A DNA stretch of 64,000 nucleotides, from assembly GCA_040954595.2 (NCBI GenBank), contig CM082594.2:3891319-3955318 (forward strand), read 5' to 3'. Of the stretch, positions 2,315 through 29,093 are shown piece by piece. The stretch is from Balanoglossus misakiensis. Its lineage: Eukaryota; Animalia; Hemichordata. The notes beneath the pieces were generated by a model. The model was given only the letters and a program-made list of their open reading frames with translations. It did no database searches and was not told the origin of the DNA. Numbering within the stretch: position 1 is the stretch's first letter; every line of letters begins with the position of its first letter. Position numbers and translations under genes: made by a program.

Positions 2315-3054
2315 ATGTATGTATGTATGTATGTATGTATGTATGTATGTATGTATGTATGTATGTATGTATGTATGTATGTATGTATGTATGTATGTAT
2401 GTATGTATGTATGTATGTATGTATGTATGTATGTATGTATGTATGTATGTATGTATGTATGTATGTATGTATGTATGTATGTATGTATGTATGTATGTAT
2501 GTATGTATGTATGTATGTATGTATGTATGTATGTATGTATGTATGTATGTATGTATGTATGTATGTATGTATGTATGTATGTATGTATGTATGTATGTAT
2601 GTATGTATGTATGTATGTATGTATGTATGTATGTATGTATGTATGTATGTATGTATGTATGTATGTATGTATGTATGTATGTATGTATGTATGTATGTAT
2701 GTATGTATGTATGTATGTATGTATGTATGTATGTATGTATGTATGTATGTATGTATGTATGTATGTATGTATGTATGTATGTATGTATGTATGTATGTAT
2801 GTATGTATGTATGTATGTATGTATGTATGTATGTATGTATGTATGTATGTATGTATGTATGTATGTATGTATGTATGTATGTATGTATGTATGTATGTAT
2901 GTATGTATGTATGTATGTATGTATGTATGTATGTATGTATGTATGTATGTATGTATGTATGTATGTATGTATGTATGTATGTATGTATGTATGTATGTAT
3001 GTATGTATGTATGTATGTATGTATGTATGTATGTATGTATGTATGTATGTATGT
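2315..3054. repeat. Pure (ATGT)n tetranucleotide microsatellite, 740 bp (~185 units)
   Basis: Uninterrupted ATGT repeat; explains the MYVC/YIHT pseudo-ORFs. Confidence 0.99.
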
Positions 3055-6601: not shown

Positions 6602-7815
6602 ATTAAAGCTGCAAGCAGCGTTGGCGGGGCACAAGCGGTTCCCATGGTAACCAGCAAATGCCAAGGCTGTATCAGCTGTGGATACCAAGATATGGGAAAG
6701 TAGGTCAAAGGTCACTTGAGGTCACCCCAAATTTGGGCAAAAAAATCGGACCCCATACAAGTCTAGGTCCAACAAAAACCAGACCCCTAGCTCTATTGGT
6801 TCACCTAGAATTAGGTATGCGCATAATTAATGAGGTCTTGTGTAAGACTCCATATGCGCTCCATCTGCCCCCCAAAAGCCAGGACTCTAACTGCTGTGGA
6901 TGCTGAGATATGGGAAAGTAGATCAAAGGTCATCAAAGGTCACTCAAAATTTGGGCATAAAATTTTGACCCCAGGGTGGGCCATGTCCAACTTAAACCAG
7001 ACCTCTAGCCCTGTTGGTTAGCCTGGAATTAGATATGCAGAAAAATAATGTTTCAGAAATAGGTCAAGGGTCATTGCCAAAATTACCAAAATATTTGTGT
7101 CATGTCCTGGCAGCATTGGTACCCATGTCCACAAAATTCATGACTGTGGTGCTTTGACAAGAGGAGGTATGGGGAATATGCATATATAATTAGTTGTTTT
7201 AAAACTGGGTCAAAGGTCATGTGAAAATTGCCTTGAAAAATGGTGACAACTTCCGGTCATGTGATGACTCATATCCAAAAAAAGAATTTCCATGCTGTCA
7301 ACATTTTGGCTACAAAACGGAATTATCACTTTTCAATGCTTTTCCGAAAATCCAACATGGCCGCCATAATGATCGACCAATCACAGTGCGCTTCGCAAAC
7401 TTGATAGACATAGGTTAGGTGACCACATATCCCAAATCCCGAGACTCGGTAACCGCTGGTTCTGGAGAAGAAGATTTTTAAAGTTTTAAGTAGTTTTTCA
7501 GAAAAACAATTGTAGCAAAAAAACTTTATGTATGACGTCATGATTTCAATGGGGTAAAATGATGGACATAAGGTAGGCTACCTGCACACCAAATTTGAAC
7601 TCGATCGGCCCAGTGGTTTTTGAGAAGGACTCATTTAACGATTTTCAGGAAATCCAATATGGCCGCCAGGTCACGTGACTAATTAAATATTCACGAGCCA
7701 CTGCACGTCTACTCATTGGCCCCTATCACCCTACCAAGTTTCAGCCCCCTAGGTGCTGCCGTTTTCCAGATCTACCTGGCCGATTTTTGGAGAAGAAGAA
7801 GAAGAATAAAGAAGA
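6602..7815 (+). mobile_element. Element A: non-autonomous Helentron (~1.27 kb), left part; its last 56 bp are displaced to 29038-29093
   Basis: Left end with GCTGC-AA-GCAGC stem and sub-TIR GGGGCACAAGC (6626-6636). Body near-identical to 23963-25128 of element B. Rejoining 7815 to 29038 restores GAAGAATAAAGAAGAAATATTCCAACAATACC, as in B. Confidence 0.85.
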
Positions 7816-9100
7816 ATTAAAGCTGCAAGCAGCGTTGGCGGGGCACAAGCGGTTCCCATGGTAACCAGCAAATGCCAAGGCTGTATCTGCTGTGGATGCC
7901 AAGATATAGGGAAAGTAGGTCAAAGGTCACCTGAGGTCACCCCAAATTTGGGGAAAACAGTTTGACACTGTACAGGTCCATGTCCACCAAAAACCCAACC
8001 TCTAGCTTGTGGTTAGCTTGGAATGAAATATGTGCATAATTAATGAGGTATTGTGTAAGACTCCATTATGTGCTCAAATTCCCCAAATGCCAGGGCTTTA
8101 TCTGTTCTGGTACCCATGTCCACAATAATCAAACATATACCTGCATTTGTTGGTGTAGTATATTAGACATGTGCATATAATTAAAAAAGCGCTGAAACAA
8201 TGTGAAAATTGGAGTGCAAAGTTTGCTTCTATACCTATTCAGACTATTCAAATACCAAATTAAATTGTGCCTGCATGTGTTCATAAACGTTTAAATATGC
8301 TTGACATCCATTAGTGGTATGAACTTTCGCTCGTTCACTCGTACAACTATTTTGGTGTTTTTATTATTAGCTCTTTTGTTGATGATGATGACATTAAGTG
8401 ACAAATGCGTTAAATATGTATTTGTGACAACTTTCTTTCAAGAATAGTTGTTCACTGTTCTACCCAGGTGAATACGAGACTATTTCAGTCATTTTGCAGA
8501 AATTTATACTGCTTCCAGCTGTGGTCTATCTTTACAGGTACTAACAGCAATTTCCGTGCCCAATAACAATTGTTTCAGAAGGCTGAATGTTTATGCCTGT
8601 ACATATATAAATTCACTACAGTGCATACACTGGAGAAATATTTTAAACTCATTTCTGTATTGAAAACCTTTTGGACGGTGCATACATGTATCTGTGTCAT
8701 GTATATTTTTCTATAACCTTACCTGATTCAAATAAATGAAATGAACATCATAAAAGCAGACCTTTTTGGTAGCTTAATCATAAAATAAGGGATGATCATA
8801 ATAATTGGAATTCAATAAGGTCAGGTTCATCCAAAATAAGTTTCAGTGCCACATACATAGTGCAAAGTCCATGAACTGCCAATTTCCCCACCCATTGTAT
8901 ATATAGGCTCCTATACCGCTCAGCGCCACCAACGGAAGAATGGAGAGAAGAGATTTTCATTCACGTTGATCTTATCATTAGATGTTTGCACCAAAATATA
9001 ATAAATGAGCAATGATAACGATGGGGAAATTAATTATATGTTGATTGAAACATAACAGTCATCGCAAGTGTAACAACGAACTCGTTTATTTGAACGTCTT

Positions 9101-9194
9101 GGGCGGAAGTGACGTACAAAAGAAAGGCAGAATACCAATGTTTGGGGGCGCTATACCAATTACAGCCACACTCTATACTGAACTACTGGTGAGT
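9101..9194 (+). promoter_or_regulatory. Putative Pol II promoter and first (non-coding) exon of the Helentron gene
   Basis: Overlapping ETS/CRE motif GCGGAAGTGACGT (9103-9115) in a locally CpG-rich patch, followed by donor CTG|GTGAGT (9189-9194). A second possible donor CAG|GTGAGT lies near 9445. Confidence 0.5.
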
Positions 9195-9566
9195 ATTATT
9201 TTGTAAAGCCCGTCTTTCGAAAATTAGTTTTAGATAAGCGATCCCGATGTTTCAAGGCACGAAAGATATATGACACTGTGCGGGAAGATGTTGGGTTATG
9301 AGTACTTGATGGCCATCATCGAAGTTTAATTCGATTGTGTGAAATTATTGACGATTCTTTTCGATCGCTGACACAGCTGCCTAAAAAGTAGGGTTAGGGA
9401 CTTAGGGTAAAAATAGAATCGCGACCACCACATGCGGTCTGCAGGTGAGTTTGTTTTGGTTCTTTCTTGAAACGTGCAGCTTTTTGGATGAAATAATACA
9501 TTACAGAACCCAGCAAAACTGTAAGTATCTGTGCAAATGGTTCGCTATGTAATCGAAGGGAAATCC

Positions 9567-9661
9567 TTAGCTGCAATGATTGTAGCGGGTGCTGCTAGGT
9601 TGACTGATGCTGCGAACACACCAGTCAACCTAGCAGCACCCGCTACAATCATTGCAGCTAA
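9567..9661. repeat. Perfect 40-bp inverted repeat with 15-nt spacer (hairpin / mini-MITE)
   Basis: 9567-9606 is the exact reverse complement of 9622-9661. Confidence 0.95.
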
Positions 9662-9923
9662 TAAACACATTCTCAGTTTTGTACATTTCATATTAGTGTC
9701 ATTGAGGAAGAAATTGCAGTTATATTAAACCTTGGGAATATGTTCAAGAAGCAACGAATTGTAGTTTTAGCTGTGAATTGAATAATTCATTTCTATAGTC
9801 TATTAGAGGTATATGCATAGATTGCAAATAGTATTGCTGGGTATTCTTATGTTGCATTTAGACTACAATGCTGCACAAGTAGAATGAACCACAACAAAGT
9901 CACCAGGGTGAAGTGTTCATGAC

Positions 9924-10006
9924 ATACTGTAAAACAGGTCATTGGCATGACATGAAATTTTTGCTATATCAAAAGAAGCAACTGTTACGTGAGGATTAAT
10001 TTTTGC
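9924..10006 (+). mobile_element. Degenerate fragment of the ACTGTAAAA-terminated MITE family seen at 35659
   Basis: ACTGTAAAA...TCAAAAGAAGCAACTGTTACGTGAGGATTAATTTTTGC aligns with TCAAAAGAGGCAACTGTTACGCGAAGATTAATTTTCGC (~35701-35738), including CG-to-TG changes. Confidence 0.55.
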
Positions 10007-10540
10007 TTGGTTTCATGTCTGTTCGTGTGCCAGTTTAGTTGAGTGTGTGGCACATATGTGAATGTTGGTATATACAGCCTGTGCACAGTGTATATAATTG
10101 CACCATGTGATTGCGTGTGTTTGGACCTTTGCACCTCTTTGATGCCTGTCCGTCTGTGTGCTAGTTCATCAGAGTGTGGATGCGTGTGTGTAGGTATGTC
10201 TATGTATCATGTGTTTGCATCTTTTTCTGAATCTTTGTCTGCATGTCTTTGTTGATTCATGTATGTCTGGAACTCCTGTCTGTGTGCAAGTTTATCAAAG
10301 TGGGTGTGTGTGGCTAGGTATTAGTACTACATGTACCCTTTGTTTATGTCTGGGTGTGCACTGTCAGCCGTTCTGGATTGGCTGTGTTGTATATGTACAT
10401 TGAATGATTTTTGTGTCACTATGCATGGTTCTATTGTGTATGCAGAAAACAATGTACTTACATGTATTTTGATATGCAGTATTCAGTCTTTGTAAAGGTG
10501 TTTGAATGTAAAGTGTGACGATGGGGAATGGGATCACTTA

Positions 10541-11270
10541 GGGACCGTTCAGTTTTTACGGCCGGGGGTGGGGGGGGGGGATCAAAATCCAGGGGGGTGA
10601 CTTAAGTCCAAGAGGGGGGGGGGGGGGGGTCATCTGTTTTTTTATATGTTTAGGGGGGTCACATACTTTTGCCACCGAACTTTTGCTTTTGAGTACACAA
10701 AATTGCAGTTTCACGCCCTTTATTTTACAAAATTTTCTAATGTGGGAGGGGGACACCAACCCCCTCCATTCTCCCCCACATTGCATTTATTCGCTGGTTT
10801 GTCTAGTGTACAGGGCAGACTTCTTCCCACCCTACCCCGATGCTTCTTTTGAGTGGAGTGGCAAAATTAAAATTTGTCCTCCCTAACATTAAGTTAATTT
10901 GCTTTTGAGTTCATTAAAATGCAACTTTGAGCACTGTATTTTACCAAATTTTCTTATGTGGGAGGGGGACACCCCCGCCACTTTTCTTTTTTTACCAATT
11001 CTACCAACTATTGTATTGGATTGTCATTTTAGTTTGTTCATTTAATTTAATGTCTAATTGAGGCGAGAGGAGCCTCATTCCATTTATTGCATACAGTGTA
11101 CATAGGTTCATGTTTTCGGCATGGGGGGGGGGGGGTCATCATATTTTTGGGTCTGTCAAAGGGGGGGGTCATCATTTTTTGGTCCTTGGTGAAGGGGGGG
11201 TCGGCCTGATTTTGAAAATCGATGACACAAACTTGCCCCCCCCCCCTGGCCGTAAAAACTGAACGGTCCC
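10541..11270. mobile_element. PIF/Harbinger-type MITE (730 bp) in Helentron intron
   Basis: TIR GGGACCGTTCAGTTTTTACGGCC ... GGCCGTAAAAACTGAACGGTCCC, flanked by 3-bp TTA direct repeats (10538-10540, 11271-11273). Poly-G/poly-C subterminal tracts; no ORF. Confidence 0.85.
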
Positions 11271-11565
11271 TTATACTGTAAAGATTCTCATGTTATAAGG
11301 GTGGTAATTTCAATGACTCCTTTATGATGTTATATCTGGCACTGTCTTTTATCTTTTTGTATGTGGTTGTATGTGTTTGCTTTGATTGTATTGGCGCATA
11401 TACTGTAGTCTGTTATGTTTAGTGAAGATAAAGAGGAAATGCCTGATGGAAATAGATGAACTGGATTTTATGCAGAAATAATATGCATGTATTCTGTTGG
11501 ATTCAGTGGCAAACATGTACACCTATAACCAGTAATGATAATTTATATTATTTGCTTTCTTGCAG

Positions 11566-11595
11566 TTTTGTATAACCAAAGATATCCCACTTGAG
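11566..11595 (+). other. Putative 30-nt non-coding 5' UTR exon of the Helentron gene
   Basis: Acceptor TTTGCTTTCTTGCAG| at 11565 and donor GAG|GTAAGT at 11596. Confidence 0.55.
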
Positions 11596-12139
11596 GTAAG
11601 TGTGTCTGCCATGTGAAGAGACCTTCAGCATAATGCACTGCAGTACAGTTCTGCATGTGATTCATTGCAGGTTACTTGTCATAACTCTGCTCTGACACAG
11701 AGCTTATCAGATAAGACAATTGTTCATAGGTTGTCTGTCATGTGTCAACACAAGTGTTCTGTTAAATAACTAGTGCAAATGTGTTTAAATTTTATATGCA
11801 TGTTTGGCCTTAGTATAGTTTTTGGAAATTGTGAAATTTGGGTATATAATTAAACCCTCTTAGTATCCAAGTGTCCAATTGCCTTGAAATGTACAGTCAC
11901 TATGTGTAAATACAACAAATGCCATAATTTGAGTGGGAAATTTTTGCTGAGCTAAATTTCTTTAATCACGTCCTGTGTGAAAAAAATGTCTATAGTTTTG
12001 TTTGAGAATGGCACATGCTGTCTTACTACTTTGACTTTATTCTATGTGCATGAAGTCAACATATGTTGGAATAGTTTCTACAGAAATGTCTACTTGTCTT
12101 ACCCAGATTGCAAACAAATATTTCAAAAAGGTAAATGAG

Positions 12140-12420
12140 AAGAAAGTGTGATCGGCTGAATCTATGAATCTCAAACTTGGCACAATTATGTGGGCCTATG
12201 TAATTTCATGCATAACACTCTTGAATTTTTAATTACTCACTGTAATTGTCAGCTTTGATTGGAATTTTCATATGGACCTTATTTATATTAAAATGTGGAA
12301 TAAAAAATCTGTTGACAGTCCTTGTACACTACATGTACCGGTATATGGTCAGGATCCCACATGCCAAATTTCAAGGTTGTGGACCATGTCAACAGGTTTA
12401 TCCGTGACCTTGACCTACCC
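12140..12420 (-). mobile_element. Old inverted Helentron-family relic within intron of element B
   Basis: CGGCTGAATCTATGAATCTCAAACTTGGCACAATTATGTGGGCCTATG resembles the reverse complement of 28773-28820 of element E. Also TGACCTTGACCT and CATGCCAAATTT motifs shared with the subterminal regions. Confidence 0.5.
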
Positions 12421-12532
12421 ATAGGCCTATACCTCTACAGTGAAGCTATCACCACATTTTATTCTGGCATTCTGGTCTGTACAATAGTCCCGGACATTAA
12501 AATGTTAACAGTTATGTATTTATTGATTTCAG

Positions 12533-14527
12533 ATGCCACGCTCTAGGAACTGGAGGAAGAAGAGGAGTCAGATGAAAGAGGATGCTGCCCTCTCAAAAAA
12601 CAGCTTCGATATGACAGAGGATGCTGCCCTCTCAAAAAACAGCTTCGATATGACAGAGGATGCTGCCCTCTCAAAAAACAGCTTCGATATGACAGAGGAT
12701 GCTGCCCTCTCAAAAAACAGCGACGTAATCAAAGAGGATGCTGCCCTCTATAATCTCAGCGACAATACCCTTCGGGGTGCCAGCCTTCGGTGTTCGAAGG
12801 ATCAAAACTGTGAAACTTCCCTTCGGGGTTCAAACCTTCGGTGTTCGAAGGGTGAAAACTTTGAAACTTCCCTTCGGGGAACCAATGATTCTAGGGTACC
12901 TGCAAATGGTGACATTGTCACTTGTGTTAATGGAAATTTACAGATTGAGAAAGCAGTTGATATTGCACACAAGAGAAATGACAATGAATGTATTATTCAG
13001 AATGTTACCCCGAATGAATTTGTTTTCTCTCCTGTAACCACCACCATATGCCAAGAGTTATGCTGTAAGCTTCACATAAAATATGGAAATAAAGTTGAAA
13101 TGCTCGATGAAATTCGTAGTGTTGAAATTGGTGAACCATGCAATATGAAGTCTATTATCGGTGATGGTAATTGTTTGTTTAGAGCTTTGTCGTATGCCAT
13201 TAGTGGCAGTGAACGTAACCATGCTGTAATGCGAAAGGCCATTGTAAACCACATGATTGCAAATGACAGTGCATATTTTGGTTGGCTGGACCAAGACCAA
13301 GGATATACATCAGTTGCTGATTATATTGCAAAGTCTAGAATGAATTGCCTAACAATCTGGGGTTCCGAAAATGAGATCTTGGCCGCTGCCGATCTCTTAC
13401 AAACTGACATCTATGTGTATAGTTCTGGAATATGGCTAAGACATTATTGTAATGCAATTAATAAAAGTAATGTTGATAAAGGTGTAGGTATATACCTGAA
13501 CCATCGCAACAGAGATCATTTTGAAATTGTCAAGAGTGTAAAGACACGTGAGATGGTAACATCTGACTCTACACACATTGAATGTGATGAACTTGTCTCA
13601 AGTGAAGGTATGACTAATGAATTCCACAATGAGGCAGATAGTGGCAGTTGTGTTCCACTAAAGAGTCCATTGGACAAGAAAGGAAATTTCCACTTAAGTG
13701 ATGAAACTGAAAGTGTTACAAAAGGAAGAGGTAAGAGACCAGCAATGAGTGAACGATTACGAAAGAAAATCAGAAAACAAAAATATGAATGTAATGAGAC
13801 CACTGCAAAGAGCTGCAGGGCAATATCCAAATATGAATTGTACCACAGTAATTCTCAATATAGAGAGACGAAGAAGTTAAAAAGTAGACAGCATTATCAT
13901 CAGATCCGAGAAAGTAAGAAACAAAAAATGAAAGATTTATATGAACAAAATCCCGATTTTCGGGAGGCAAAGAAAGCCCACGTAAGAGTGAATTACCAAG
14001 AAAATCCCGATTTTCGGGAGGCAAAGAAAGCACACGTAAGAGTGAATTACCAAGAAAATCCCGATTTTCGGGAGGCAAAGAAAGCACGTGTAAGATTGAA
14101 TTACCAAGAAAATCCTGATTTACGGGAGGCAAAGAAGGCACGTGTAAGAGTGAATTACAACCAAAATCCTGATTTTCGGGAGGCACATAAGGCAGAAATG
14201 TCAAAAAAAATATCACAAAAATATCAGAGAGACGTAAACTTTCGTGAGGAAAAGAAGGCAAAATTAATACAGAAATACGAACAGAATGATCTTTACAGAG
14301 AATGCAAAAAGGCACAGAGTATTCAACGATATGAGATTGATCCTCATTACAAAGATAATGCATTGAAGAGAAGCAGGTGTCAGATGATACAGAATGACAT
14401 TGACAAGCATAATGTTCAGCATGTTATTGCTAATTTCAGAAATACTGCCTCAGAAGGTCCAAATTGTGTATGTTCTGTTTGTTATCGTAGACTTCAGGAA
14501 ACAAGTAATTGTTTGCAAGAAGGATAA
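12533..14527 (+). CDS. Helentron transposase N-terminal part: tandem repeats, OTU-like cysteine protease, Lys/Arg-rich repeats, first half of Zn finger (frameshifts into next ORF at ~14492)
   Basis: 664-aa ORF. OTU catalytic motif IIGDGNCLFRALS (Cys ~13172) with WG..NEI.AAA and NRDHF His. ATG directly follows acceptor TTTCAG|. Ends with CVCSVCYRRL. Confidence 0.85.
   Translation: MPRSRNWRKKRSQMKEDAALSKNSFDMTEDAALSKNSFDMTEDAALSKNSFDMTEDAALSKNSDVIKEDAALYNLSDNTLRGASLRCSKDQNCETSLRGSNLRCSKGENFETSLRGTNDSRVPANGDIVTCVNGNLQIEKAVDIAHKRNDNECIIQNVTPNEFVFSPVTTTICQELCCKLHIKYGNKVEMLDEIRSVEIGEPCNMKSIIGDGNCLFRALSYAISGSERNHAVMRKAIVNHMIANDSAYFGWLDQDQGYTSVADYIAKSRMNCLTIWGSENEILAAADLLQTDIYVYSSGIWLRHYCNAINKSNVDKGVGIYLNHRNRDHFEIVKSVKTREMVTSDSTHIECDELVSSEGMTNEFHNEADSGSCVPLKSPLDKKGNFHLSDETESVTKGRGKRPAMSERLRKKIRKQKYECNETTAKSCRAISKYELYHSNSQYRETKKLKSRQHYHQIRESKKQKMKDLYEQNPDFREAKKAHVRVNYQENPDFREAKKAHVRVNYQENPDFREAKKARVRLNYQENPDLREAKKARVRVNYNQNPDFREAHKAEMSKKISQKYQRDVNFREEKKAKLIQKYEQNDLYRECKKAQSIQRYEIDPHYKDNALKRSRCQMIQNDIDKHNVQHVIANFRNTASEGPNCVCSVCYRRLQETSNCLQEG
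12578..12748 (+). repeat. Coding 39-bp tandem repeat (EDAALSKNSFDMT), 4 copies plus a partial fifth
   Basis: Units start at 12578, 12617, 12656, 12695, 12734; in frame. Confidence 0.95.
13947..14190 (+). repeat. Coding 54-bp tandem repeat (18 aa, ENPDFREAKKAHVRVNYQ), ~4.5 copies
   Basis: AAAATCCYGATTT units at 13947, 14001, 14055, 14109, 14163. Confidence 0.95.
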
Positions 14528-17500
14528 ATATTACAGTAACAGAATTACATCTGATATTGCTGTAAAATGTATATCAGAAGAATATGTGCACAAATGTGCC
14601 CCGACATGTATGGCTGACTGCCCTCTCAAGAATAGTGCAGCCAGTACATTATGGATTTGTCACACATGCCACAGAAAGCTTTTACGTGGAGAGATGCCAG
14701 TTCAAGCTGCTGCAAATAACCTTCATGTCACACCAGTCCCTCCTGAATTGAAATGCCTCAACTCACTTGAGCAACATTTAATTGCATTAAATATACCATT
14801 CATGAAAATGTTGGCATTACCTAAGGGTGGTCAGAATGGAGTCCATGGACCTGTAGTGTGTGTCCCTTCTGATATAAAGAAGGCTACAAATATTTTGCCT
14901 CGAAATGAGTTTGATGATCAGATGATAAGGGTCAAATTGAAGCGAAAGCTGAGTTATAAAGGTTACTATGAGTATCAGTTTGTAAACAAACGACACATTC
15001 AGAATGCTTTGGAATACCTCCAGACAAATAATCATTATTACAGTGATATAACTTTCAATATGGATTGGAAAAATACTCTTGAAAAGACTGAAGAAGATCT
15101 TTCAGATGCTAAAATTAATAACAGCGAATCAGAAATGTCTGATGACAAAAACATTGATGAAAGCAATGAAAAGACCAAAGGAAATGTTTCAGATACTGAA
15201 GGTAATGATGTGTCATCAGACACAGAAGATAATAATGTGTCAAATAAAGATACTAATGGAATATTGATGGACACATGCCTCCAACCAATTGACATAGGTC
15301 AGGATATTCTTGATTATCACTTTGAGGATATATCTTGTGTTGCTCCTGCAGAGGGTAATACACCTGTTAGTCTGTTGATGGAAAAGTTGAATGAAGCTAA
15401 GTGCTTTCCTGTGTTATTCCCAACTGGGTCACCCACATTTCATGATGACCGAGAGGTTAAGATAACAATAGGACGATACTTGCAAAGTCGTGTAATGAAT
15501 GCAAGTAACAGATTTTCAAAAAGCACAGACTATATCTTTTATGCGCAATATCTGTCTGAAATTAACCAGGTTGTATCCAATGTGTCAATTGCTTTGAGAA
15601 AAGGAACTGCTAATGCTTGTGGCAAAAAAGTGACATCCGATGTTTTAAGTGACAGTGAATCTTTGAAACAGATTTTGAAGTCTGATGAAGGGTACAAGTT
15701 TTTAAAACCTATAAGAGGAACTCCTCCTTATTGGCAAGCAACACAAAAAGACCTGTTTGCAATGATCAGACAGTTGGGTATACCAACATGGTTTTGCTCA
15801 TTTTCTGCTGCCGACTTACGGTGGAAAGAAGTTATTGAAACTATACTTCGTGGAGAAGGAGACGTACGTAATGCTGAGGATCTTGATTGGTCTGAGAAAT
15901 GTGCTATCTTGAGACGAAATCCTGTAACAGCAGCCAGAATGTTTGATCACAGATTTCATTGTTTTCTGAGTGAAGTCATCATGTCACCAGCCAATCCTAT
16001 TGGAAATATCAAAGATTATTTTTATCGAGTCGAGTTTCAACAACGAGGCTCACCACATACACACTGTTTATTTTGGGTTGAAAATGCACCAAAGGTTGAT
16101 AGAGATACTGATGAAGATGTAGTTGATTTTGTTGACAGATATGTAACATGTCAAATGCCTTCTGTTGAGGAGGATGAGGAATTGCAAGAGATTGTGAATA
16201 AAGTTCAGAAACACAGCTCAAGGCACTCCAAATCTTGCAAGAAAAAGGGCACTAGATGCAGATTCAACTTTCCACGACCACCATCAAAGAAAACGTTCAT
16301 ATGCCGTCCTGATATAGATATAGAAATGACAGGTGAAGGTGAGAAGTCAAACCTTGATGATGATAAAGAAACACTAGAAGAGAAATGTCAAAGAGACACG
16401 ACTCAGTTAATTGATAATGTGATGAGCCAGATGGCTGCTAGGAATATTCTAGAAAAAGTGTGGACATGCCTGCATGACAAAGAGAAACAGATTGATTCGG
16501 TTGATGCACTGTTTAATGAAGTCAGCATTTCTCAGGAGATGTTTGAGAAAGCACATGCAATTTTGGCAAGGAAAACAAGTGTAGTATTAAAGCGTGAGCC
16601 AAATGATGTTTGGGTAAACCAATACAATTCTAACCTGCTTCTTTGCTGGAATGCAAACATGGACATTCAATTTGTTGTGGATGCTTATGCCTGTGTTGTG
16701 TACATTGTGTCATACATCTCTAAGGCAGAGAGAGAAATGGGTTTACTGCTGGAAAATGCACAGAGAGAAGCTAACAAAGAAGGAAATATGGATGCGAAAT
16801 CTGCATTGAAACAGTTGGGCAGTGTTTATCTGCATAACAGAGAAGTGAGTGCCCAAGAGGCTGTATATAGACTGTGTGGATTGAAACTGAAGCAATCATC
16901 TCGAAAAGTCCAGTTCATTCCAACTGGAGAAACCCCTATCAAAATGAGTTTGCCATTGAGTGTAATACGTAGCAAAATGACAGGAGATGATTTGAATGAA
17001 AATGATATCTGGTATAATAGCATTGTAGACAGATACAAGAACCGACCAAATGGAGACGAGTTTGACGACATGTGTCTTGCGACATTTTGTTCAGAATACC
17101 GAATAGTGTCAAAATCAGAAGTGACAAATACCAGCACTGAGAAACGTGCAAATCCAATAGTCAAGTTGAAAAATGGTGCAGGTTACATGCAAAAAAGATC
17201 TCGAACTGATCCAGCTGTCATTAGATATGCAAGATTTTCTGTGACTAAATATCCAGAAAAGTATTACCGCACTATGTTAGAACTCTTCTTGCCACACTGG
17301 GTTGATTCCCAATTGAAACCAAATGGGTTTGAAACATATGAAAATTTCTATTCTGCGGGTGCAGTGAAGTGTGGATCTGCATCGTTACAAACAGTGAAAT
17401 TGATAGTAGATGCCAATAAAGCAATGTTTGAGAAAGAGGCTGATGCCGTTGATTTAGCTGAAGAGCTCCTTGAAGGAAGTGGCCCTCTAGAGGATGCATG

Positions 17501-19772: not shown

Positions 19773-19782
19773 AAGACATCAA

Positions 19783-20292
19783 TGTTTGACCACAACATGG
19801 TTATCTGAGAAGCTAGCAAATATAATGTGAGGTACCAGTGAATGGATTTGAACTCAATCACCAGCCGCTGTCAAAATCATACCATTATTTTGAAACTAAT
19901 CTGCAAAAGATATGACTGTGTTGAAATCATGCATTTGCCTGTTTGTAACTTGGAAAATATTACATTTATGTCCAAGATATCAATACGGTGGTAGCAGTAA
20001 TTTAAGACCAGTGCATCATCATACAAAGCAGTGGTGTTCTATAAAACCTTACTTCTGTTGATGAAAGGAAATGTCAATTCATGTATCCAGGTGCTGCAGT
20101 GATCATCAGTGATATGAATGAAAATATTTTCATTATCAAGGTAGTGCAACCCTTTGGTTTCAAGCAACATGTGAGCAATCAAACTTAACAGAAGCTGGTA
20201 CATTGATTGACAATGTGTAATGTGAAAAGAACAGAAAATATTGTTGAAATACTGCCAAAGTACTTCAGTTTTCATGAAGCCATCAGCATTAA
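19783..20292 (+). pseudogene. Decayed tandem duplicate of the endonuclease-coding 3' end (copy of ~19209-19762)
   Basis: Colinear matches, e.g. GTGAATGGATTTGAA, AAGATATCAATAC.GTGGT.GCAGTAATTTA, CAGAAGCTGGTACATTGATTGAC, CCAAAGTACTTCAGTTTTCATGAAGCCATCAGCATTAA. Contains indels and stops. Confidence 0.85.
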
Positions 20293-23200
20293 CAACATTG
20301 AGGCATTATGCATATAGTAATTAAAACCCGTGTTACATACAACTGGTATTGAGGAGGCATAATGGGGTTTGAGACTTACGGGTCCCCATTTCGAGATTGT
20401 TGGGCAGGGGGGGGGGGGGGTTGTAAACATTTATTATTTACTCTTAGGTTACCCTGGTGCTAATTGTCACATTTGATATCAAGCTGTTACTGTTTTATCG
20501 TGATGGGAGACTAATGTATTTGATTGTCTATCATTTCTGAGCCATTTGTTTGACACGGCTGCAGTGATTTCATTGAAATGACATGGTTCACATGCAATTA
20601 GTTACATGGATCATGATATTATCATGTTGTAGGTGATTGTGCACACATACCTGCTTATTGATGTATTTTAAAGCACAACAATTTATAACATGCTACAAAA
20701 GTAGAAGTCAGTGGTGGCCATGCATTTATGATTTCTGATGCATGTGACTTTTACGCAAATATACCAGAAATATTGTGTTCACACTGGATGTGACCTATTG
20801 TTGTGATGTTATCCATTATATGCACCTGACTGTCATTTCTTGATGATTTTATTTATTCCAGAACTGTCATTTGTGATATGTGTTTCAACTGATTCATCAA
20901 AACTCACACAGTGTTAGTCCTACGTGAATGTATGTCATAATTCCAGCCTGGCACTTTGTCACTGTTATTAGCAGACATGCTATCAAAAGTGTGAGTAATA
21001 ACAGTCCCAATAGCCTGCTTACAGTGTTCTCCAGAGGATTTTGGGAAAGCATGGTTGTGAATTTACATAACAATACAATCAATTGTTATGTTAACTAAGT
21101 TATACAATGTATTATTATGTAGCCTTAATCAGTGGTTCACACTATGTTTTATGTAATACCCATCAGTAAGGCTTATTTAAAGAAACCATTGTAAGTGTCA
21201 AGTTCATAATGACAAATATGCCAAAATTGTAAATATTCAAGCTTGTATGAAACATTTCAGTCATTTACCAAGGCATTTTTATTCTGTTGACAATGAAATG
21301 GAAATTGGTAAATGGAAATTCCATAAGAATAAGGTTCATTTAAGAATAATAACACAACTTAACATTAAAAATGGATTTTTAATTACGCTGTATGTAAAGT
21401 ACCATTAGGGGAAATGTGTTAAACACATAGTTTGATTTACAATTGGTAAAACATTAGCACCAGGGTAGCCTAGGTTTATAAATGTTTTAATCCTTGTTGT
21501 AAATTTGTGAAATCTATTTTTATGCATTTTCCTTATGTTATCTACTCAATGACCACATACATTGTATAATACCACTGTCTACCTTTGTGTCTGTCAGGCT
21601 GTCATGAATGGCTTAAGTTAATACACTGAATTAAATTCATTATATAGACATTTGTGAAGCAATTTTAACAACTTGTTTGAAGTATAGTACGGTCTTTCAG
21701 TGCAGGATGGTTGCTTTCAGTTTCACAAAACAATATAAATTGCCCATCAAAGACACAATTTTTGGGGATACATGCACCAAGACAAACATCGTGGAATGGC
21801 AATCCCAAAATTATCCTTATATAACTGGTATTCAGACTTGTATTCTGTGAATCATCATTGCTATTTATGTAGAACAACATGCTGTAACTCCAGTAGCAAT
21901 AACTGAACCACTGCGTATAAAGCAAAGAGTGTACACTGAAATGTCACTATTGCTTTAATCCCAAACATTTAGAATGAGCATGGTTATTTACAGGTCCAAA
22001 GTAACCCACAAACACTGACACTATCAGGTTTGCATCACAGATGTGTCAGTCCCAATAATTTATTAGTTATATAATTTTTATGTCATTTTATTATATTTGT
22101 TAGTATAGAGAATCTGATATACACCACAGTACATGAAGGAATTTTACTTTCCTGATTTTTGTTCCCTATTAGTACTACACTATAAATACGTGAACTATTT
22201 GAAAAATTTCACAGCACTGATTGCAAGAACTTATGTAACTGTATTCATAGTGAAGTTTAATATTTAACTATATTTATTCTTGAATTATTGACATCAGTTT
22301 TGTGTTATTCCATATGCTATTATTGTCAAGAGGTGATTTATATCCTCATGTGACCTGCACTGGCCCATACATATACTCAGAATGCCAAATGTATTGGGTG
22401 TGTTCAACAGTTATGGCCTCAACTTTCATGTCACACTATCCCGTTAGTAACTATTCAGATCTTAGAGGTTCTTTTTGTTAATGAACAGGGAGTGAACAAT
22501 GGGTTATCTTAATGATAACCACACTCATATTTATATCAGATTAAGATTCTTTTTCCAGAATATGTCACCTGTCATCACCAATCCATGAATTACTTTTTAT
22601 AGTGTCCGAAGATGATTTTATAAGTTGAACATTTTCCATAAGGTCCACTATAGTGCACTGACATCAGTGTAATGATTACATAAGATTTAATGTGAGTTTG
22701 AATGACTGGGTTCTTCCCATTTGCATATTTATATGTTCACACCTGGTATTTATTACTTAGGTGAAGTTGATGAGCTAGTACTGTCTGCAAACAATAGAGA
22801 TTTAAATACAGAGGTCAAGCAGGCCAATCAGTTATGGCTACCTTTATTTGGGATTTGTCAGTAGACTTTCACATCTCACTGGGAGTGCCTACAAGACAGA
22901 ACTCTACTTGTTTTCTGTGTCACTCCAATCTATTCACTACTCGACGACCAGTTCAGCAATATGCAGTCCAGAAAAACTACGAACTGTTCACTCTTAAGCA
23001 AGTCCATTATACAGGGGATGCCACTTCTGCAACATTGCAATCTTTTGCAATTAAAGTCTTACACATTCACACATCGAGCTAATCCTATGCACCTCTCAAC
23101 TCGGACTTCGCCTGTGACCAATTCTTTGGCATGCTTTGTGCACGGAATGTTTACAAGACAAGATATATGGGACTGAATTTAGACAATATGTGATTTAGCT

Positions 23201-23439
23201 ATGGTGTAGATTTATTCTGCAATGTTGCTACTTGTATTGGTTGTCAATGAAATTATATTATTTGGTCTTTGACCAAAATCAACGTAATTCAATTCGTGTC
23301 AGTGTGGTCTTTTTTCTACGCCAATATTCTACCCTGGCCACTAATTTTTGGTTAGGAATAAATTACGTCACAATGTGTCATTTGACCCTTTTGTGACACA
23401 TAGCTGTTGCATTTTTTAGGTACACAATGCAATTGATAA

Positions 23440-26400
23440 TATAAGTTGACCCAGAATGAGATATGGACATAAAAGTGATTAGGTGCTCCATCCCTCCAAA
23501 TGCCAAGGCTCTATCTGCTTATAGGATGCTGAGATATGGGAAAAAGGGTCCAAGGTCCCCTGAGGGAAATAAATGTTGACCCCATACTGGTCCATGTCCA
23601 AGGAAAACCAAACCTCTAGCCCTATCTGTTTGCCTTTAATTAGGTATGCACATAATTAATAAGTTAAGCAGTTGGGCTTTTTTATTTTGGTCCCTGTAGT
23701 GCTCACTGGCCAACAGACACTTGGCTCAAAAACAAAGCCGTAGCCCTATAGGTTAGCCTTGAATTAGATATGCAGAAAAATGAAGTGTCAAAAGTAGGTT
23801 AAAGGTCATTGCCAAAATACCGAAATATTTGGGTCATGTCCTTGCAGCGAAAGTACCTATGTCAATTCAGAACTGTGGTGCTTTTACAACAGGAGCTATA
23901 AGGCATATGCACTTATTATTAGGTTCTTTACAAACTGGGTCAAAGGTCATGTGAAAATTGCCAACCAGCGAATGCCAAGGCTGTATCTGCTGTGGATACC
24001 AAGATATGGGAAAGTAGGTCAAAGGTCACCTGAGGTCACCCCAAATTTGGGCAAAAAAAATGGACCCCATACTAGTCTAGGTCCAACAAAAAACAGACCC
24101 CTAGCTCTATTGGTTCGCCTAGAATTAGGTATGCGCATAATTAATGAGGTTTAGTGTAAGACTCCATATGTGCTCCATTGCCCCCCCCCCCCCCCAAGCC
24201 AGGACTCTAACTGCTGTGGATGCTGAGATATGGGAAAGTAGATCAAAGGTCATCCAAGGTCACCCAAAATTTGGGCATAAAATGTTGACCCCAGAGTGGG
24301 CCATGTCCAACTAAAACCAGACCTCTAGCCCTATTGGTTAGCCTGGAATTAGATATGCAGAAAAATGATGTTTCAGAAATAGGTCAAGGGTCATTGCCAA
24401 AATTACCAAAATATTTGTGTCATGTCCTGGCAGCATTGGTACCCATGTCCACAAAATTCATGACTGTGGTGCTTTGACAAGAGGAGGTATGGGGAATATG
24501 CATATATAATTAGTTGTTTTAAAACTGGGTCAAAGGTCATGTGCAAACTGCCCCGAAAAATTGTGACAATTTCCGGTCATATGATGACTCATATCCAAAA
24601 AAAGAATTTCCGTGCTGTCAACATTTTGGCTACAAAACGGAATTTTCATTTTTTAATGGTTTTCCGAAAATCCAACATGGCCGCCATAATGATCGACCAA
24701 TCACAGTGCGCTTCGCAAACTTGATAGACATAGGTTAGGTGATCACATACCCCGAATCCCGTGACTCGGCAATCGCTGGTTCTGGAGAAGAAGATTTTTA
24801 AAGTTTTAAGTAGTTTTTCAGAAAAACAATTGTAGCAAAAAAACGGTATGTGTGACGTCATGATTTCAATGGGGTAAAATGATGGACAGAAGGTAGACTA
24901 CCTGCACACCAAATTTGAACTCGATTGGCCCAGTAGTTTTTGAGAAGGACTTGTTTAACGATTTTCAGGAAATCCAATATGGCCGCCAGGTCACGTGACT
25001 AATTAAATATTCACGAGCCACTGCACGTCTACTCATTGGCCCCTATCACCCTACCAAGTTTCAGCCCCCTAGGTGCTGCCGTTTTCCAGATCTACCTGGC
25101 CGATTTTTGGAGAAGAAGAAGAAGAAGAATTAAAGCTGCAAGCAGCATTGTCCGGGCCCAAGCTCTATTATCTGACCTGATTATTAGATATGCACATAAT
25201 TAATGATTAGAAACATAATGCTGTGTTTTATCCCATAAAATATCAAGGTTATATCTATGTTTGGTGCTGATATAGTGTTAAGTAGGTCAAAGGTCAACCA
25301 GGGGTCACCCACAAATTGGGCAGAATATTTTGACCCACAGTGGTCCATGTCCAACAAAAACCAGACCTCTAGCCCTTTTGGTTAGCCTAGAATTAGGTAT
25401 GCACATAAATAATGAGGTCAGCAGAGGTCACAGGTGACCCAAAACTTTGGCTTTTCATTATGGCCCCATATCTCCAAATGCCAAGGCTGTACCTGCTTTG
25501 GATGCCGAGATATGCAAAAGTAGGTCAAAGGTCACCCGAGGTCACCCAACATTTGGGCAAAATATTTTGACCCCATACTGATCCATGTCCAAAAAAACCC
25601 AAACCTCTAGGTCTATTGGTTAATCTGTAATTAGGTATGCGCATATTTAATGAGGTCAGCAGAGGTCAAAGGGGTCATGAAAAGTAGCAAAAATTTTTGT
25701 TCACATACAAATCCACATACATCAAAAACCAAACTTATAGCCCTATTGGTTAGCCTGGAATTAGATATGCAGAAAAATGATGCGTCAAAAGTAGGTCAAA
25801 GGTCATTGCCAAAATTACCAAAATATTTATAGCTTATACTTGTCATATGATGATTCATATCCATTAAAAGAATTTCTGTGCTATCAATTTTTAGGCTAGA
25901 AAGGGAATTTTTACTTTTTAATCGTTTTTCACAAAATCCAATATGGCCGCCATAATCTTCGACCAATCACATTCAACTTCGCAAACTTGATAGACATCTG
26001 TTTAATAACCACACACACCAAATCTTGTGACTCGGTTATCGCCGGTTCTTGAGAAGAAGATTTTTGAAATTTTACTAGGGTTTTTCGAATATCCAATATG
26101 GCCGCCATAATCTTGGACCAATCACAATGATCTTCGCAAACTTGATAGACATCAGTTAGGTGACCACATACCCCAAACCCCGTGTCTCGGTTATCACCGG
26201 TTCTGGAGAAGAAGATTTTTGAAATTTAAGCCAGATTTCAGAAAAAAAATTGTAGCAAAAAAACTGCAACTTTGTCAGCATAATTTCCAATTACAAAAAT
26301 GACGGGCAGAAGGTAGTCTACCAGCATGCCAAATTTGAAGTCGCTCTGACTTGTAGTTTCTGAGATCTGAGATTTGCATTTTTTCAGAAAATCCAATATG

Positions 26401-28450
26401 GCCGCCATGTCATGTGACTAATTAAGTATTCACAAGTCACTGCACATCTACTCATTAACCTTGACCACTGTAGCAAGTTTGAGAACTGTACCTGCAGTGG
26501 TGTCTGAGATCTAGAGCGATAAAGAATGGAACCAAGAATAAAGAAAGAAAGAAAGAAAGAAAGAAAGACAGAAAAACCCCAGCGAAACCAATACGGGCCC
26601 AAGCCTGGCTTGGCTTGGGCCCGTAAATATAGCTGCAAGCAGCGATGACGGGCCCAAGCTTAAGCCGAAGGTCAAAGGTCATATGTCGTCACCCAAAAGA
26701 TGGGCAAGAAATTTTGACCCCATACTGGTCCAGGTTCAACAAAAATCAAACCTCTAGCCCTATTGGTTAGCCTGGAATAAGGTATGCACATAATTAATGA
26801 GTTCAGCAGGTGTTACAGGTGACTTAATAATTTCACTTTTCATTTTCAACCCATCCCTCCAAACGCCAAGGCTGTACCTGCTCTGGATGCTGAGATATGG
26901 TTAAGTAGGTCAAAGGTCACCTGAGGTCACCCAAAATTTGGGCAAAAATTTTTGACCCTATACTGGTCCATGTCCCATAAGAACAAAACCTCTAGCCCTA
27001 TTAGTTATCCCTGAATTAGGTATGCACATAATTAATGAGATAAGCAGGTGTCACAGGTGACCCCCAATTTTGGCTTTTCGATTTTAGTCCCAACCCTCCA
27101 AACGCCAAGTCTGTACCTGCTCTGAATGCAGAGATATAGGAAAGTAGGTCAAAGGTCACCTGAGGTCACCCAAAATTTGGGCAAAATTTTTTGACCCCAT
27201 ACTGGTCCAGGTTCCACAAGAACAAAACATCTAGCCATATTAGTTAGCCCAAAATTAGGTATGCACATAATTAATGAGTTAAGCAGGTGTTACAGGTGAG
27301 CCCAAAATTTTGCCTTTTATTTTGGTCCCATTCTGCTCACGGGCCAATAGACAGTCACTGTACAGGACCATTGCACAGACGTGGACATAGCGTCATAGCT
27401 TAACTATAGAAAGTATAGGCCCTTGGCTTGGTCCAAAAATATGAAAAACTAATAATATTTAAAAGTCTTCTTCTCAAAATAGACTTGGCCCACAGCCTTG
27501 ATATTTGGTATGTTGGATACTGACCACATGGTCCAGAAAGTATCCTAACAGAATTTTGATATCTCAATTCATATGCAAATTAGGCCCATTTGAAAACTTT
27601 GCCCATATATGGTCAACAGGTCACATGACTAATTAAACATTCACAAGGGTACTGCACCAGCTCTCATAGGCCTGCACCATTTTGCCAAGTTTGAAATTTG
27701 TAGGTTCAGCCGTTTTCAAGATCCTATTGGCCGAAAAAACTACACAAGAAAAAAAAGAAGAATATAGCTGCAAGCAGCGATGACGGGCACAAGCTTAAGC
27801 CGAAGGTCAAAGGTCATATGTGGTCACCCAAAATTTGGGCAAAAAGTTTTGACCCCATACTAGTCCAGGTCCAACAAAAACCAGACCTCTAGCCCTATTG
27901 GTTCGCCTAGAATTAGATATGCACATAATTAATGACGTAAAGTATAAGGCTCCATTAGGAGTTCCATGCCTCCAAATGCCAAGGCTGTATCTGCATGGGT
28001 TGCCGAGATACGGTAAAGTAGGTCAAAGGTCACCTGAGGTCACCCAAAATTGGGCAAGAAATTTTAACCCCATACTGGTCCATGTTCAACAAAAATCAAA
28101 CCTCTAGCCCTATTGGCTAGCCTGGAATTAGGTATGCACATAATTAATGAGATAAGCAGGTGTCACAGGTGACCCCCAATTTTGTCTTTTCAATTTTAGT
28201 CACAACCCTCCAAACGCCAAGTCTGTACCTGCTGTGGATGCCGAGATATAGGAAAGTAGGTCAAAGGTCACCTGAGGTCACCCAAAATTTGGGCAAAAAT
28301 TTTTGATCCCATACTGGTCCATGTCCCACAAGAACAAAACCTCTAGCCCTAATAGTTAGCCCGGAATTAGGTATGCACATAATTAATGAGTTAAGCAGGT
28401 GTTACAGGTGAGCCCAAAATTTTGTCTTTTATTTTGGTCCCATTCAGCTC
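23440..28450 (+). repeat. Subterminal ~216-240-bp dispersed/tandem repeat units of the Helentron family (also at 6650-7220 and 7860-8130)
   Basis: Recurring AAGTAGGTCAAAGGTCACCTGAGGTCACCC...TTTGACCCCATACTGGTCCATGTCC...CCTCTAGCCCTATTGGTTAGCC...GGTATGCACATAATTAATGAG. Period about 238 bp (25284/25522; 26669/26907/27146; 28020/28258). Confidence 0.85.
25129..26625 (+). mobile_element. Element C: complete non-autonomous Helentron (~1.5 kb)
   Basis: Left end ATTAAAGCTGCAAGCAGC with sub-TIR CGGGCCCAAGC (25153-25163). (GAAA)n tract, then hairpin TACGGGCCCAAGCC-tggctt-GGCTTGGGCCCGTA (26592-26625). Confidence 0.85.
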
Positions 28451-28975
28451 ACGGGCCACTAGACTGTCACTGTACAGGACAATTGCACAGACGTGGACAT
28501 AGCGTCATAGCTTAACTATAGAAAGTATAGGCCTATGGCTGGGTCCACAAATATGACAAATAATATTTAATAATCTTCTTCTCAAAATAGACTTGGCCCA
28601 CGGGATTGACATTTGGCATGTAGGACACTGATCACATGGTCCACAAAAGTTGCTAAAAGAATTTCGATATCTCCATTCATATGCAAATTAGGCCCATTTG
28701 AAAACTTTGCCCATATATGGTCATCAGATCACATGACTTATTAAACATTCACGAGGGTACTGCACCAGCTCTCATAGGCCTGCATCACTGTGCCAAGTTT
28801 GAGATTTGTAGGTTCAGCCGTTTTCAAGATCCTATTGGGCAAAAAAACTACACAAGAAAAAGAAGAGGATGAAAAACCCCAGTAATACCAATAGGGCACA
28901 AGCCTGCTTGGCTTGTGCCCTAAAAAACCAGGATAATACCAATAGGGCCCAAGCGCTGCATGCGCTTGGGCCCTA
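26627..28975 (+). mobile_element. Element D: non-autonomous Helentron (~1.19 kb) interrupted by E at 27762-28922
   Basis: Left end ATATAGCTGCAAGCAGCGATGACGGGCCCAAGC. Right hairpin TAGGGCCCAAGCGC-tgcat-GCGCTTGGGCCCTA (28943-28975). Confidence 0.85.
27762..28922 (+). mobile_element. Element E: complete non-autonomous Helentron (~1.16 kb), close relative of D
   Basis: Left end ATATAGCTGCAAGCAGCGATGACGGGCACAAGC. Right hairpin TAGGGCACAAGCC-tgctt-GGCTTGTGCCCTA (28892-28922). Body colinear with D. Confidence 0.85.
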
Positions 28976-29093
28976 ATAAAGAAGAAATATTCCAACAATA
29001 CCAATAGGGGCACAAGCCCGATAGGCTTGTGCCCCTAAATATTCCAACAATACCAATGGGGGCACAAGCCGCCTGAGGGCGCTTGTGCCCCCA
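28884..29093 (+). repeat. Array of four stacked Helentron right-end hairpins
   Basis: Four AATACCAAT-stem-loop units (28892-28922, 28943-28975, 29005-29037, 29057-29093) with 13-14-bp stems and different loops. Confidence 0.95.

What the first reader, a model, noticed from the sequence alone, without database searches (positions are those of the whole stretch)
6602..29093. Russian-doll Helentron stack: five left ends and five right ends pair like balanced brackets
Seen: left ends at 6602 (A), 7816 (B), 25129 (C), 26627 (D), 27762 (E) and right hairpins ending at 26625, 28922, 28975, 29037, 29093. Last-in-first-out pairing gives A(B(C)(D(E))). In each pair the left sub-TIR variant equals the hairpin stem variant: A and B GGGGCACAAGC, C CGGGCCCAAGC, D GGGCCCAAGC, E GGGCACAAGC. 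Removing each inner element restores a contiguous host end. Established: Helentrons/DINE-1 have sub-TIRs and stem-loops, insert at TT and make no TSD; tandem and nested Helitron copies are known in general. Inference: this is an ordered, same-orientation, self-nesting transposition system rather than random clustering.
Basis: partly seen in the sequence, partly recalled or inferred. Interest (0 to 1): 0.88.

Follow-up and report, generated by a model that had tools for sequence, protein, structure and literature searches.

The report
Five Helentrons nested at their ends
Five related rolling-circle transposons, one a 17-kb copy with a once-broken transposase gene, are stacked inside one another here, likely because each carries beside one end the short GAA/TTC repeat that the family is predicted to land in; this is an unusually clean case of self-insertion already described in fungi, not a new kind of system.

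Summary
Real. Five left ends and five hairpin ends lie where stated (0 of 100 shuffles reach 5), and A(B(C)(D(E))) holds. The rebuilt ends of A and B match each other only in this order, and contigs show D without E.

A is its deletion derivative; C, D and E are HINEs.

All three internal landing sites lie 53-62 bp inside the host's hairpin end (the 5' end in DINE-1 convention), after AAGAAGA. That motif occurs only there, on one strand. The known T-rich/TT target rule plus the element's own microsatellite therefore likely explains both place and orientation. Transposase tethering to resident ends is not excluded.

Self-insertion stacking 31-85-nt 5' ends is published for Fusarium FoHeli1, and this scan noted the same pattern in another genome (e1-9346374, unchecked). 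No genome was held, so the genome-wide test was not run; read data come from one sample. New member of a known kind.

The parts
6602..7815 (-). Element A (outermost HINE, 1270 bp own length): tail end and body. It is a deletion derivative of the B family: B's left end joined to B's last 1.2 kb. Strand given in DINE-1 convention.
   Evidence: A is 95.8% identical to 23963-25128 plus B's head; first 72 nt identical to B's left end; contigs join an A-type left end directly at 23964 (loose ends in X2 and X3)
29038..29093 (-). Head (hairpin end) of A, 56 bp
   Evidence: family depth falls from about 66,000 to 140 between 29095 and 29110
7816..25128 (-). Element B, autonomous-type Helentron (17,375 bp own length): tail end and body, inserted in A 56 bp from A's head end
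12527..14527 (+). B ORF, N-terminal part with OTU domain; frameshift near 14494 relative to five homologues
   Evidence: PF02338 E 2.5e-9; tblastn frames switch at 14493/14494
14388..19772 (+). B ORF, main part: DUF6570, HUH Rep, Pif1 helicase, APE-type endonuclease. It runs antisense to the DINE-1 orientation of the ends.
   Evidence: Pfam PF20209, PF14214, PF05970, PF03372; motifs YRVEFQQRGSPHTH, GGAGTGKS, DEISM, MGDFN, IDH; best relatives 59-65% identical
28976..29037 (-). Head of B, 62 bp
25129..26625 (-). Element C, complete HINE (1497 bp) with (AAAG)n next to its head; lies in B's (GAA)n tract
26627..27761 (-). Element D tail end and body (1188 bp own length; 239-bp central repeats), directly beside C
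   Evidence: 91% identical to E
28923..28975 (-). Head of D, 53 bp
   Evidence: D-type body joined straight to this head in contigs
27762..28922 (-). Element E, complete HINE (1161 bp), innermost, inserted in D
   Evidence: joint 27760->28923 skipping E, depth 4917 (X1) and 752 (X2)
7789..7815 (+). (GAA)n tract of A ending AAGAAGA, the landing site of B
25110..25128 (+). (GAA)n tract of B ending AAGAAGA, the landing site of C/D
27746..27761 (+). A-rich tract of D ending AAGAAGA, the landing site of E

Best explanation
This is a nest, four deep, of five Helentron-type (HLE2) elements, likely built by repeated rolling-circle insertion at T|T steps in the (TTC)n/T-rich tract that each copy carries 53-62 bp inside its hairpin end, so that each element is likely the family's own preferred landing pad. 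Shown: the ends, the junctions, the nesting order (except C versus D), B's RepHel-endonuclease coding region with one frameshift, A as a deletion derivative of B, and D-type copies without E in contigs. Inferred: a RepHel of the B family or a relative moved all five; the T-rich/TT target rule picks the tract; the one-strandedness of the tract fixes orientation. The result is long bodies piled on one side and short heads stacked on the other. Some layers may have been assembled at other loci and moved together.
For: All 3 internal host junctions have AAGAAGA on the left and A on the right. AAGAAGA|A occurs 4, 5 and 1 times in the own sequence of A, B and D, all within the last 80 bp, 0 times on the other strand, and 0 times in 41,508 bp outside the stack (motif chosen after seeing the sites, which are among the counts). 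Helentrons and HINEs prefer T-rich targets, insert at TT with no duplication and vary in terminal T number (PMC4067079, passages; PMC7492417, passages), which fits the spare A at 26626. Rebuilt A and B ends complement each other. Other copies in the same sample show end-to-end junctions that are absent from the window: C-type head followed by an A/B-type head (26626->28982, X1 depth 1255, not seen in X2); a probable D-type head followed by a D-type head (28980->28934, X2 depth 680); A-type head followed by a C-type left end; D-type head followed by a left end; poly-A behind a D-type head in 3 contigs. FoHeli1 copies repeat their first 31-85 nt, ascribed to self-insertion (PMC5148889).
Against: A itself sits at AATATGA|ATTAACC, with no GAA repeat, so the motif is not required. 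Motif and nearness to the hairpin are fully confounded in this window, so tethering cannot be separated. Only 3 host-insert events. All contigs come from one sample, possibly the window's own; the three end-related joints used have sides of 23-27 letters at a likeness setting of 88, below the tool's caution levels; depth is no copy number; only 15 of 138 joints and 18 of 886 loose ends and 12 of 58 loose ends were shown. A decayed relative lies antisense inside B far from either end (12153-12452).
Confidence: 0.65

Rival explanations
1. End-tethered self-targeting. The RepHel binds the palindromic double sub-TIR of a resident head and inserts the incoming copy at the nearest TT 50-60 bp inside it, so position is set by the hairpin rather than by the repeat.
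For: The three distances are tight (56, 62, 53 bp), although the tracts differ: (GAA)n in A and B, poly-A-rich in D. In 17.4-kb B only 12 of 1871 A|A steps, and 5 of 29 equally A-rich steps, lie near the head. Head-to-tail junctions right at a head (C|D here; A-type head followed by a C-type left end) need no microsatellite. FoHeli1 duplications are of similar size, 31-85 nt (PMC5148889).
Against: The best-scoring purine-rich sites are themselves at the heads (7 of 10 in B, 12 of 12 in D), so sequence preference suffices. No binding data. A landed in unique DNA.
Confidence: 0.2
2. Part of the stack is made of chimeric, multi-headed units that arose once and spread as units (nicking at an outer head, ending at an inner tail), so the neat brackets partly reflect modular end-swapping rather than five independent insertions at this locus.
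For: A C-type-head/A-B-type-head junction and a D-like body with a B-like head occur at high contig depth (1255; 3759 and 614). This route is proposed in PMC5148889 (section 16) and PMC3288121 (passages). A second flank version starts exactly at 29093, as expected if the whole 22.5 kb is present on one haplotype only; that is easier to explain if layers arrived pre-assembled.
Against: Here every body has a head that restores it. Giving head 28976-29037 to a two-headed C leaves A or B without a head. The high-depth junction is one GAA shorter than this locus's.
Confidence: 0.1
3. Assembly artefact or chance cluster of repeats.
For: No long read or contig spanning the stack was seen, and the region is highly repetitive.
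Against: The five copies are 75-96% identical, not collapsed duplicates. The junctions are base-precise and cross-validate. Contigs of 95-96 nt match the outer head-flank junction without differences, with 22-23 letters on the element side. The window holds no N.
Confidence: 0.05

Closest known systems
Helentrons and HINE/DINE-1 (Thomas, Vadnagara and Pritham 2014, PMC4067079; passages seen)
   Same: Sub-TIR 2-4 nt from the 5' end with an inverted repeat, microsatellite, central repeats, 3' sub-TIR and stem-loop; TT/T-rich target without duplication; variable terminal T; Rep motif 2 with GSP; C-terminal endonuclease; HINEs as deletion derivatives; ORF on the minus strand as in Helentron-Da-40.
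   Different: The passages seen describe no nesting of whole copies in each other's 5' microsatellite.
Fusarium FoHeli self-insertion and multiple 5' termini (Chellapan et al. 2016, PMC5148889, section 16 and passages; PMC13342296, passages)
   Same: HLE2 elements with 31-85-nt repeated 5' ends (up to five 5' termini), ascribed to self-insertion close to the 5' end; one non-autonomous copy nested in an autonomous one.
   Different: There, mostly several 5' ends with one 3' end, and the nested intermediate is hypothesised. Here all five pairs of ends are kept, three subfamilies take part, an autonomous-type copy is nested in its own derivative, and the landing site is a visible microsatellite.
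Maize Helitrons with multiple termini from nested insertion (Dong et al. 2011, PMC3288121, passages); Xenopus HelenXT233 with two left termini (HELIANO, PMC11417382, passages)
   Same: Preference to insert near or inside relatives; stacked termini.
   Different: The maize elements are HLE1 (CTAG ends, decayed inner 3' ends). HelenXT233 is one family with two alternative left ends, not an intact nest.
Oyster Cg_HINE (PMC7492417, passages; review PMC12628747, passages)
   Same: HINE anatomy with a microsatellite in the 5' flank and satellite-like central repeats; T-rich targets; shuffled loci with elements inside elements.
   Different: No fixed landing site or ordered nest in the passages seen.
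SaTar microsatellite-targeting MULEs (PMC5907723, abstract only)
   Same: Works alike: a microsatellite associated with the element draws further insertions and builds arrays.
   Different: Mutator-type elements, and their arrays are explicitly non-nested.

Membership tests
Helentron / HLE2 (element B) | HUH Rep plus Pif1 helicase in one protein | tested here: met
   PF14214 E 5e-31, PF05970 E 2e-31; one frameshift upstream of Rep, near 14494
Helentron / HLE2 (element B) | Rep motif 2 signature: (F/Y)xR before ExQxRG, and S between G and P | tested here: met
   FYRVEFQQRGSPHTH against the signature in PMC4067079
Helentron / HLE2 (element B) | C-terminal AP endonuclease; DUF6570 as HLE2 marker; optional OTU | tested here: met
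   PF03372, PF20209, PF02338; marker status from PMC11417382
Helentron / HLE2 (element B) | Placement in the HLE2 clade by phylogeny | not tested
   No tree built; best relatives share the domain order
Helentron / HINE (all five) | Asymmetric sub-TIRs of 11 bp or more, with an inverted repeat at the 5' end | tested here: met
   11 of 11 letters for A, B, C; 10 of 11 for D and E; hairpins z -6.1 to -7.6
Helentron / HINE (all five) | Short stem-loop beyond the 3' sub-TIR | tested here: inconclusive
   GCTGC-TT-GCAGC is present in all five, but the 3 stretches folded do not fold better than shuffles
Helentron / HINE (all five) | Insertion at TT without target duplication | tested here: met
   A|A on the + strand at all junctions; the rebuilt A and B ends agree; D without E in contigs. 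For outermost A the empty site is only indirectly seen.
HINE (A, C, D, E) | Non-coding, with a microsatellite near the 5' end and central repeats, sharing ends with an autonomous partner | tested here: met
   No ORF of 120 aa or more; 239-bp, 155-bp and AAAG repeats; A shares both ends with B. Partners of C, D and E were not seen.
HLE2-reverse (FoHeli3/4/5, proto-Helentron type) | Stem-loop upstream of the left TIR when read along the ORF | tested here: met
   7821-7833 precedes 7840-7850 on the ORF strand; definition in PMC11417382
HLE2-reverse (FoHeli3/4/5, proto-Helentron type) | Phylogenetic grouping with those elements | not tested
   No tree; the layout alone does not give membership
SaTar arrays | Non-nested linear arrays of MULEs | tested here: not met
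   The stack is nested and the transposase is RepHel

The most novel reading that the evidence does not exclude
Animal Helentrons target themselves by design: the transposase docks on a resident copy's 5' hairpin and delivers new copies 50-60 bp inside it, using a microsatellite kept as a landing pad. This would give a harmless insertion site, let non-autonomous copies ride inside autonomous ones without breaking the ORF or either end, and let 20-kb multi-layer composites move as one unit.
Probability: 0.2. Interest if true: 0.7.

Novelty: new member of a known kind. Interest (0 to 1): 0.4.

Why it matters
The locus preserves, with every end intact, the nested intermediate that was proposed to explain multi-headed HLE2 elements. 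It also points to a concrete role for the long-noted HINE/DINE-1 microsatellite as the family's own landing site. That is testable in any assembled genome rich in HINEs, and it bears on how Helentrons choose targets, on how HINE-borne satellite blocks grow, and on annotation tools that pair the nearest inverted repeats and would mis-pair such stacks.

Tried and rejected
Whole-genome census: no genome is held for this window. The pattern scan of metagenome contigs for the left end plus sub-TIR found 0 loci; the spare scan was not used.

The C/D-free junction of B (25128->28976) could not be displayed, because the read tool skipped the repeat at 25102-25138. The empty site of the whole stack is only half seen: a second flank version begins at 29093 (X1 record 8, depth 66.6; X2 record 15, depth 30.1) beside the filled version (73; 14.3), but its 115 upstream letters were not printed, and parts of this flank look multi-copy in X1, so a paralogue is not excluded. 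The '3 letters left out at 28979' row was not counted as a head-head junction, since the length of its left side is unknown.

Rejected: head-to-tail rolling-circle concatemer or circle recombination (gives left-right-left-right, not left-left-right-right); the swapped A/B pairing; AATTAA around A as a target duplication (B and C begin with the same ATTAAAG inside GAA tracts, so the left copy is the element's own end); same orientation as independent evidence.

Look-ups of earlier scan notes by place and by sequence gave nothing relevant. Five paper searches turned up no report of intact Helentron nests at the element's own microsatellite. The library lacks most subscription journals, and I read no supplements (those of PMC5148889 list the multiple termini and may show target sites). 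No tree, fold or host-species search was run.
Full report
OBSERVATION. The window is animal DNA (NIDO and EGF exons downstream; the closest RepHel relatives are from abalone, acorn worm, hagfish and fishes). No genome is held for it. The left motif AGCTGCAAGCAGC occurs exactly five times, and the hairpin GGGCMCAAGC...GCTTGKGCCC exactly five times, all on one strand; 0 of 100 shuffles reach five for either. The five hairpins fold at z -6.1 to -7.6; the three left-end stretches folded do not beat shuffles.

NESTING ORDER. Of 72 pairings allowed by position, 2 reach the last-in-first-out sub-TIR score of 53 of 55 letters: that pairing and the A/B swap. A and B are siblings, so each can check the other. 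A was cut after ...GAATAAAGAAGA and B after ...GAAGAAGAAGA. With the innermost-first heads the two rebuilt ends differ by one GAA unit and one letter; the swap needs a 17-nt gap (scores 111 and 83). For D, Logan contigs of two runs join a D-type body straight to the head at 28923, skipping E (depth 4917 and 752, sides 26-27 letters). These are other copies of the D family, so they show the empty state of the family, not of this allele. A second version of the right flank begins exactly at 29093, as the predicted empty site would, at a depth similar to the filled version in X1 (66.6 and 73; in X2 30.1 and 14.3). Its upstream letters were not printed, so this is suggestive only. The order of C and D cannot be told.

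B (7816-25128 plus 28976-29037; 17,375 bp) carries 12527-14527 (OTU) and 14388-19772 (DUF6570, Rep, Pif1, endonuclease). Five homologues align across both frames with a switch at 14493/14494, so this is one gene with one frameshift; whether it is a mutation or a sequencing error was not tested. Rep motif 2 reads FYRVEFQQRGSPHTH, the Helentron signature of PMC4067079 (passages). A is B's left end joined to B's last 1.2 kb (95.8%; the same join is seen in other copies), so it is a HINE of B's family. C, D and E are HINEs of two other subfamilies (D and E 91% alike; other pairs 74-81%). B's ORF runs against that direction, as reported for Helentron-Da-40 and FoHeli4/5.

LANDING SITES. B, C/D and E lie 56, 62 and 53 bp from the head end of their hosts, each after AAGAAGA and before A, which is T|T on the minus strand. 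Against all A|A steps this is unlikely: 11 of 155, 12 of 1871 and 17 of 139 lie in the last 70 bp (product about 6e-5, post hoc). Against context-matched steps it is not. For AAGA|A the shares within the last 80 bp are 6 of 8, 7 of 52 and 3 of 6 (product 0.05). For equally A-rich steps they are 9 of 23, 5 of 29 and 9 of 9 (0.07). For equally purine-rich steps they are 10 of 38, 7 of 10 and 12 of 12 (0.18). AAGAAGA|A occurs 4, 5 and 1 times, always at the head, never on the other strand, and 0 times in 41,508 bp outside the stack (products are my arithmetic). Each element therefore carries the best target for its own family beside its head, and that target is one-stranded, which explains the shared orientation without a further mechanism. 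Against: A's own site has no GAA repeat; motif and hairpin distance are confounded; a decayed relative lies antisense in B at 12153-12452 (73-83%).

BEYOND THE LOCUS. Three runs of one sample hold this DNA, possibly the window's own source. Among the rows shown (15 of 138 joints and 18 of 886 loose ends; 12 of 58 loose ends and 16 of 561 pieces) are end-to-end junctions that are not in the window: C-type head followed by A/B-type head (X1 only, depth 1255, side 23); probably D-type head followed by D-type head (X2, 680); A-type head followed by a C-type left end; and D-type head followed by a left end. There are also heads followed by poly-A or unique DNA, and a D-like body with a B-like head (3759 and 614). 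Flank contigs run at depths of about 10-250, and the tool warns that depth is no copy number. I read this only as a sign that stacking recurs in this genome and that ends are modular. It cannot separate repeated insertion from spread of chimeras.

MECHANISM. Shown: anatomy, order and landing sites. Inferred from Helentron biology (PMC4067079; PMC5148889): a RepHel releases a single-stranded or circular copy and joins it at a TT in T-rich DNA without duplication, with a variable number of terminal T; the endonuclease is hypothesised in PMC4067079 to help pick the site. Each arrival in a head tract splits the host into a long body and a 53-62-bp head, and brings a new tract. I give this 0.65, hairpin-tethered targeting 0.2, pre-assembled chimeras as the main cause 0.1, and artefact 0.05.

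COMPARISON. Membership in Helentron/HINE is met on the protein, sub-TIR and TT tests; no tree was built. Self-insertion is known. FoHeli1 copies repeat their first 31-85 nt (PMC5148889, passages and section 16), with up to five 5' termini (PMC13342296, passages). Maize Helitrons gain multiple termini by nesting (PMC3288121, passages). HelenXT233 has two left termini (PMC11417382, passages). SaTar MULEs build arrays by microsatellite targeting but do not nest (PMC5907723, abstract). An unchecked note of this scan describes the same head-nesting at an AAT repeat in another genome. Five searches showed no paper on intact nests at the element's own microsatellite; the library is incomplete and no supplements were read.

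VERDICT. A real and unusually complete example of a known behaviour, with a simple likely cause and one open, testable question (sequence preference versus tethering). New member of a known kind; interest 0.4.

Noticed in passing
window 10541-11270: 730-bp MITE inside B with inverted ends beginning GGGACCGTTCAG and TTA on both sides (PIF/Harbinger-like; label recalled); a related copy starts near 55140.
   Followed up: partly
window 9567-9661: Perfect 40-bp inverted repeat with a 15-nt spacer inside B's 5' non-coding part; unexplained.
   Followed up: no
window 12153-12452: Decayed relative of E in antisense orientation inside B, 73-83% identical over two pieces, with no ends.
   Followed up: partly
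window 19783-20301: Decayed tandem duplicate of the endonuclease-coding tail of B, about 78% identical.
   Followed up: partly
window 23485-23962: Older, diverged copy of part of the A-type body directly before B's last 1.2 kb (71-83%); a 190-nt contig matches it without differences at depth 326, hinting at a few near-identical B-type copies.
   Followed up: partly
window 31612-33438: Element with about 650-bp inverted arms, 99.2% identical, flanked by TTAA on both sides and starting AG (Kolobok-like; label recalled); no Pfam hit in its one ORF.
   Followed up: partly
window 37423-61552: Host-gene exons: a Thr/Pro-rich exon, NIDO (43328-43909), calcium-binding EGF (56667-57071) and about 281-bp-period exon-like repeats at 57747-60641.
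   Followed up: no
window 2315-3054: Perfect (ATGT)185 microsatellite.
   Followed up: no
window 12572-12879 and 13947-14185: In-frame tandem repeats (39, 51 and 54 bp) within the N-terminal part of B's ORF.
   Followed up: no
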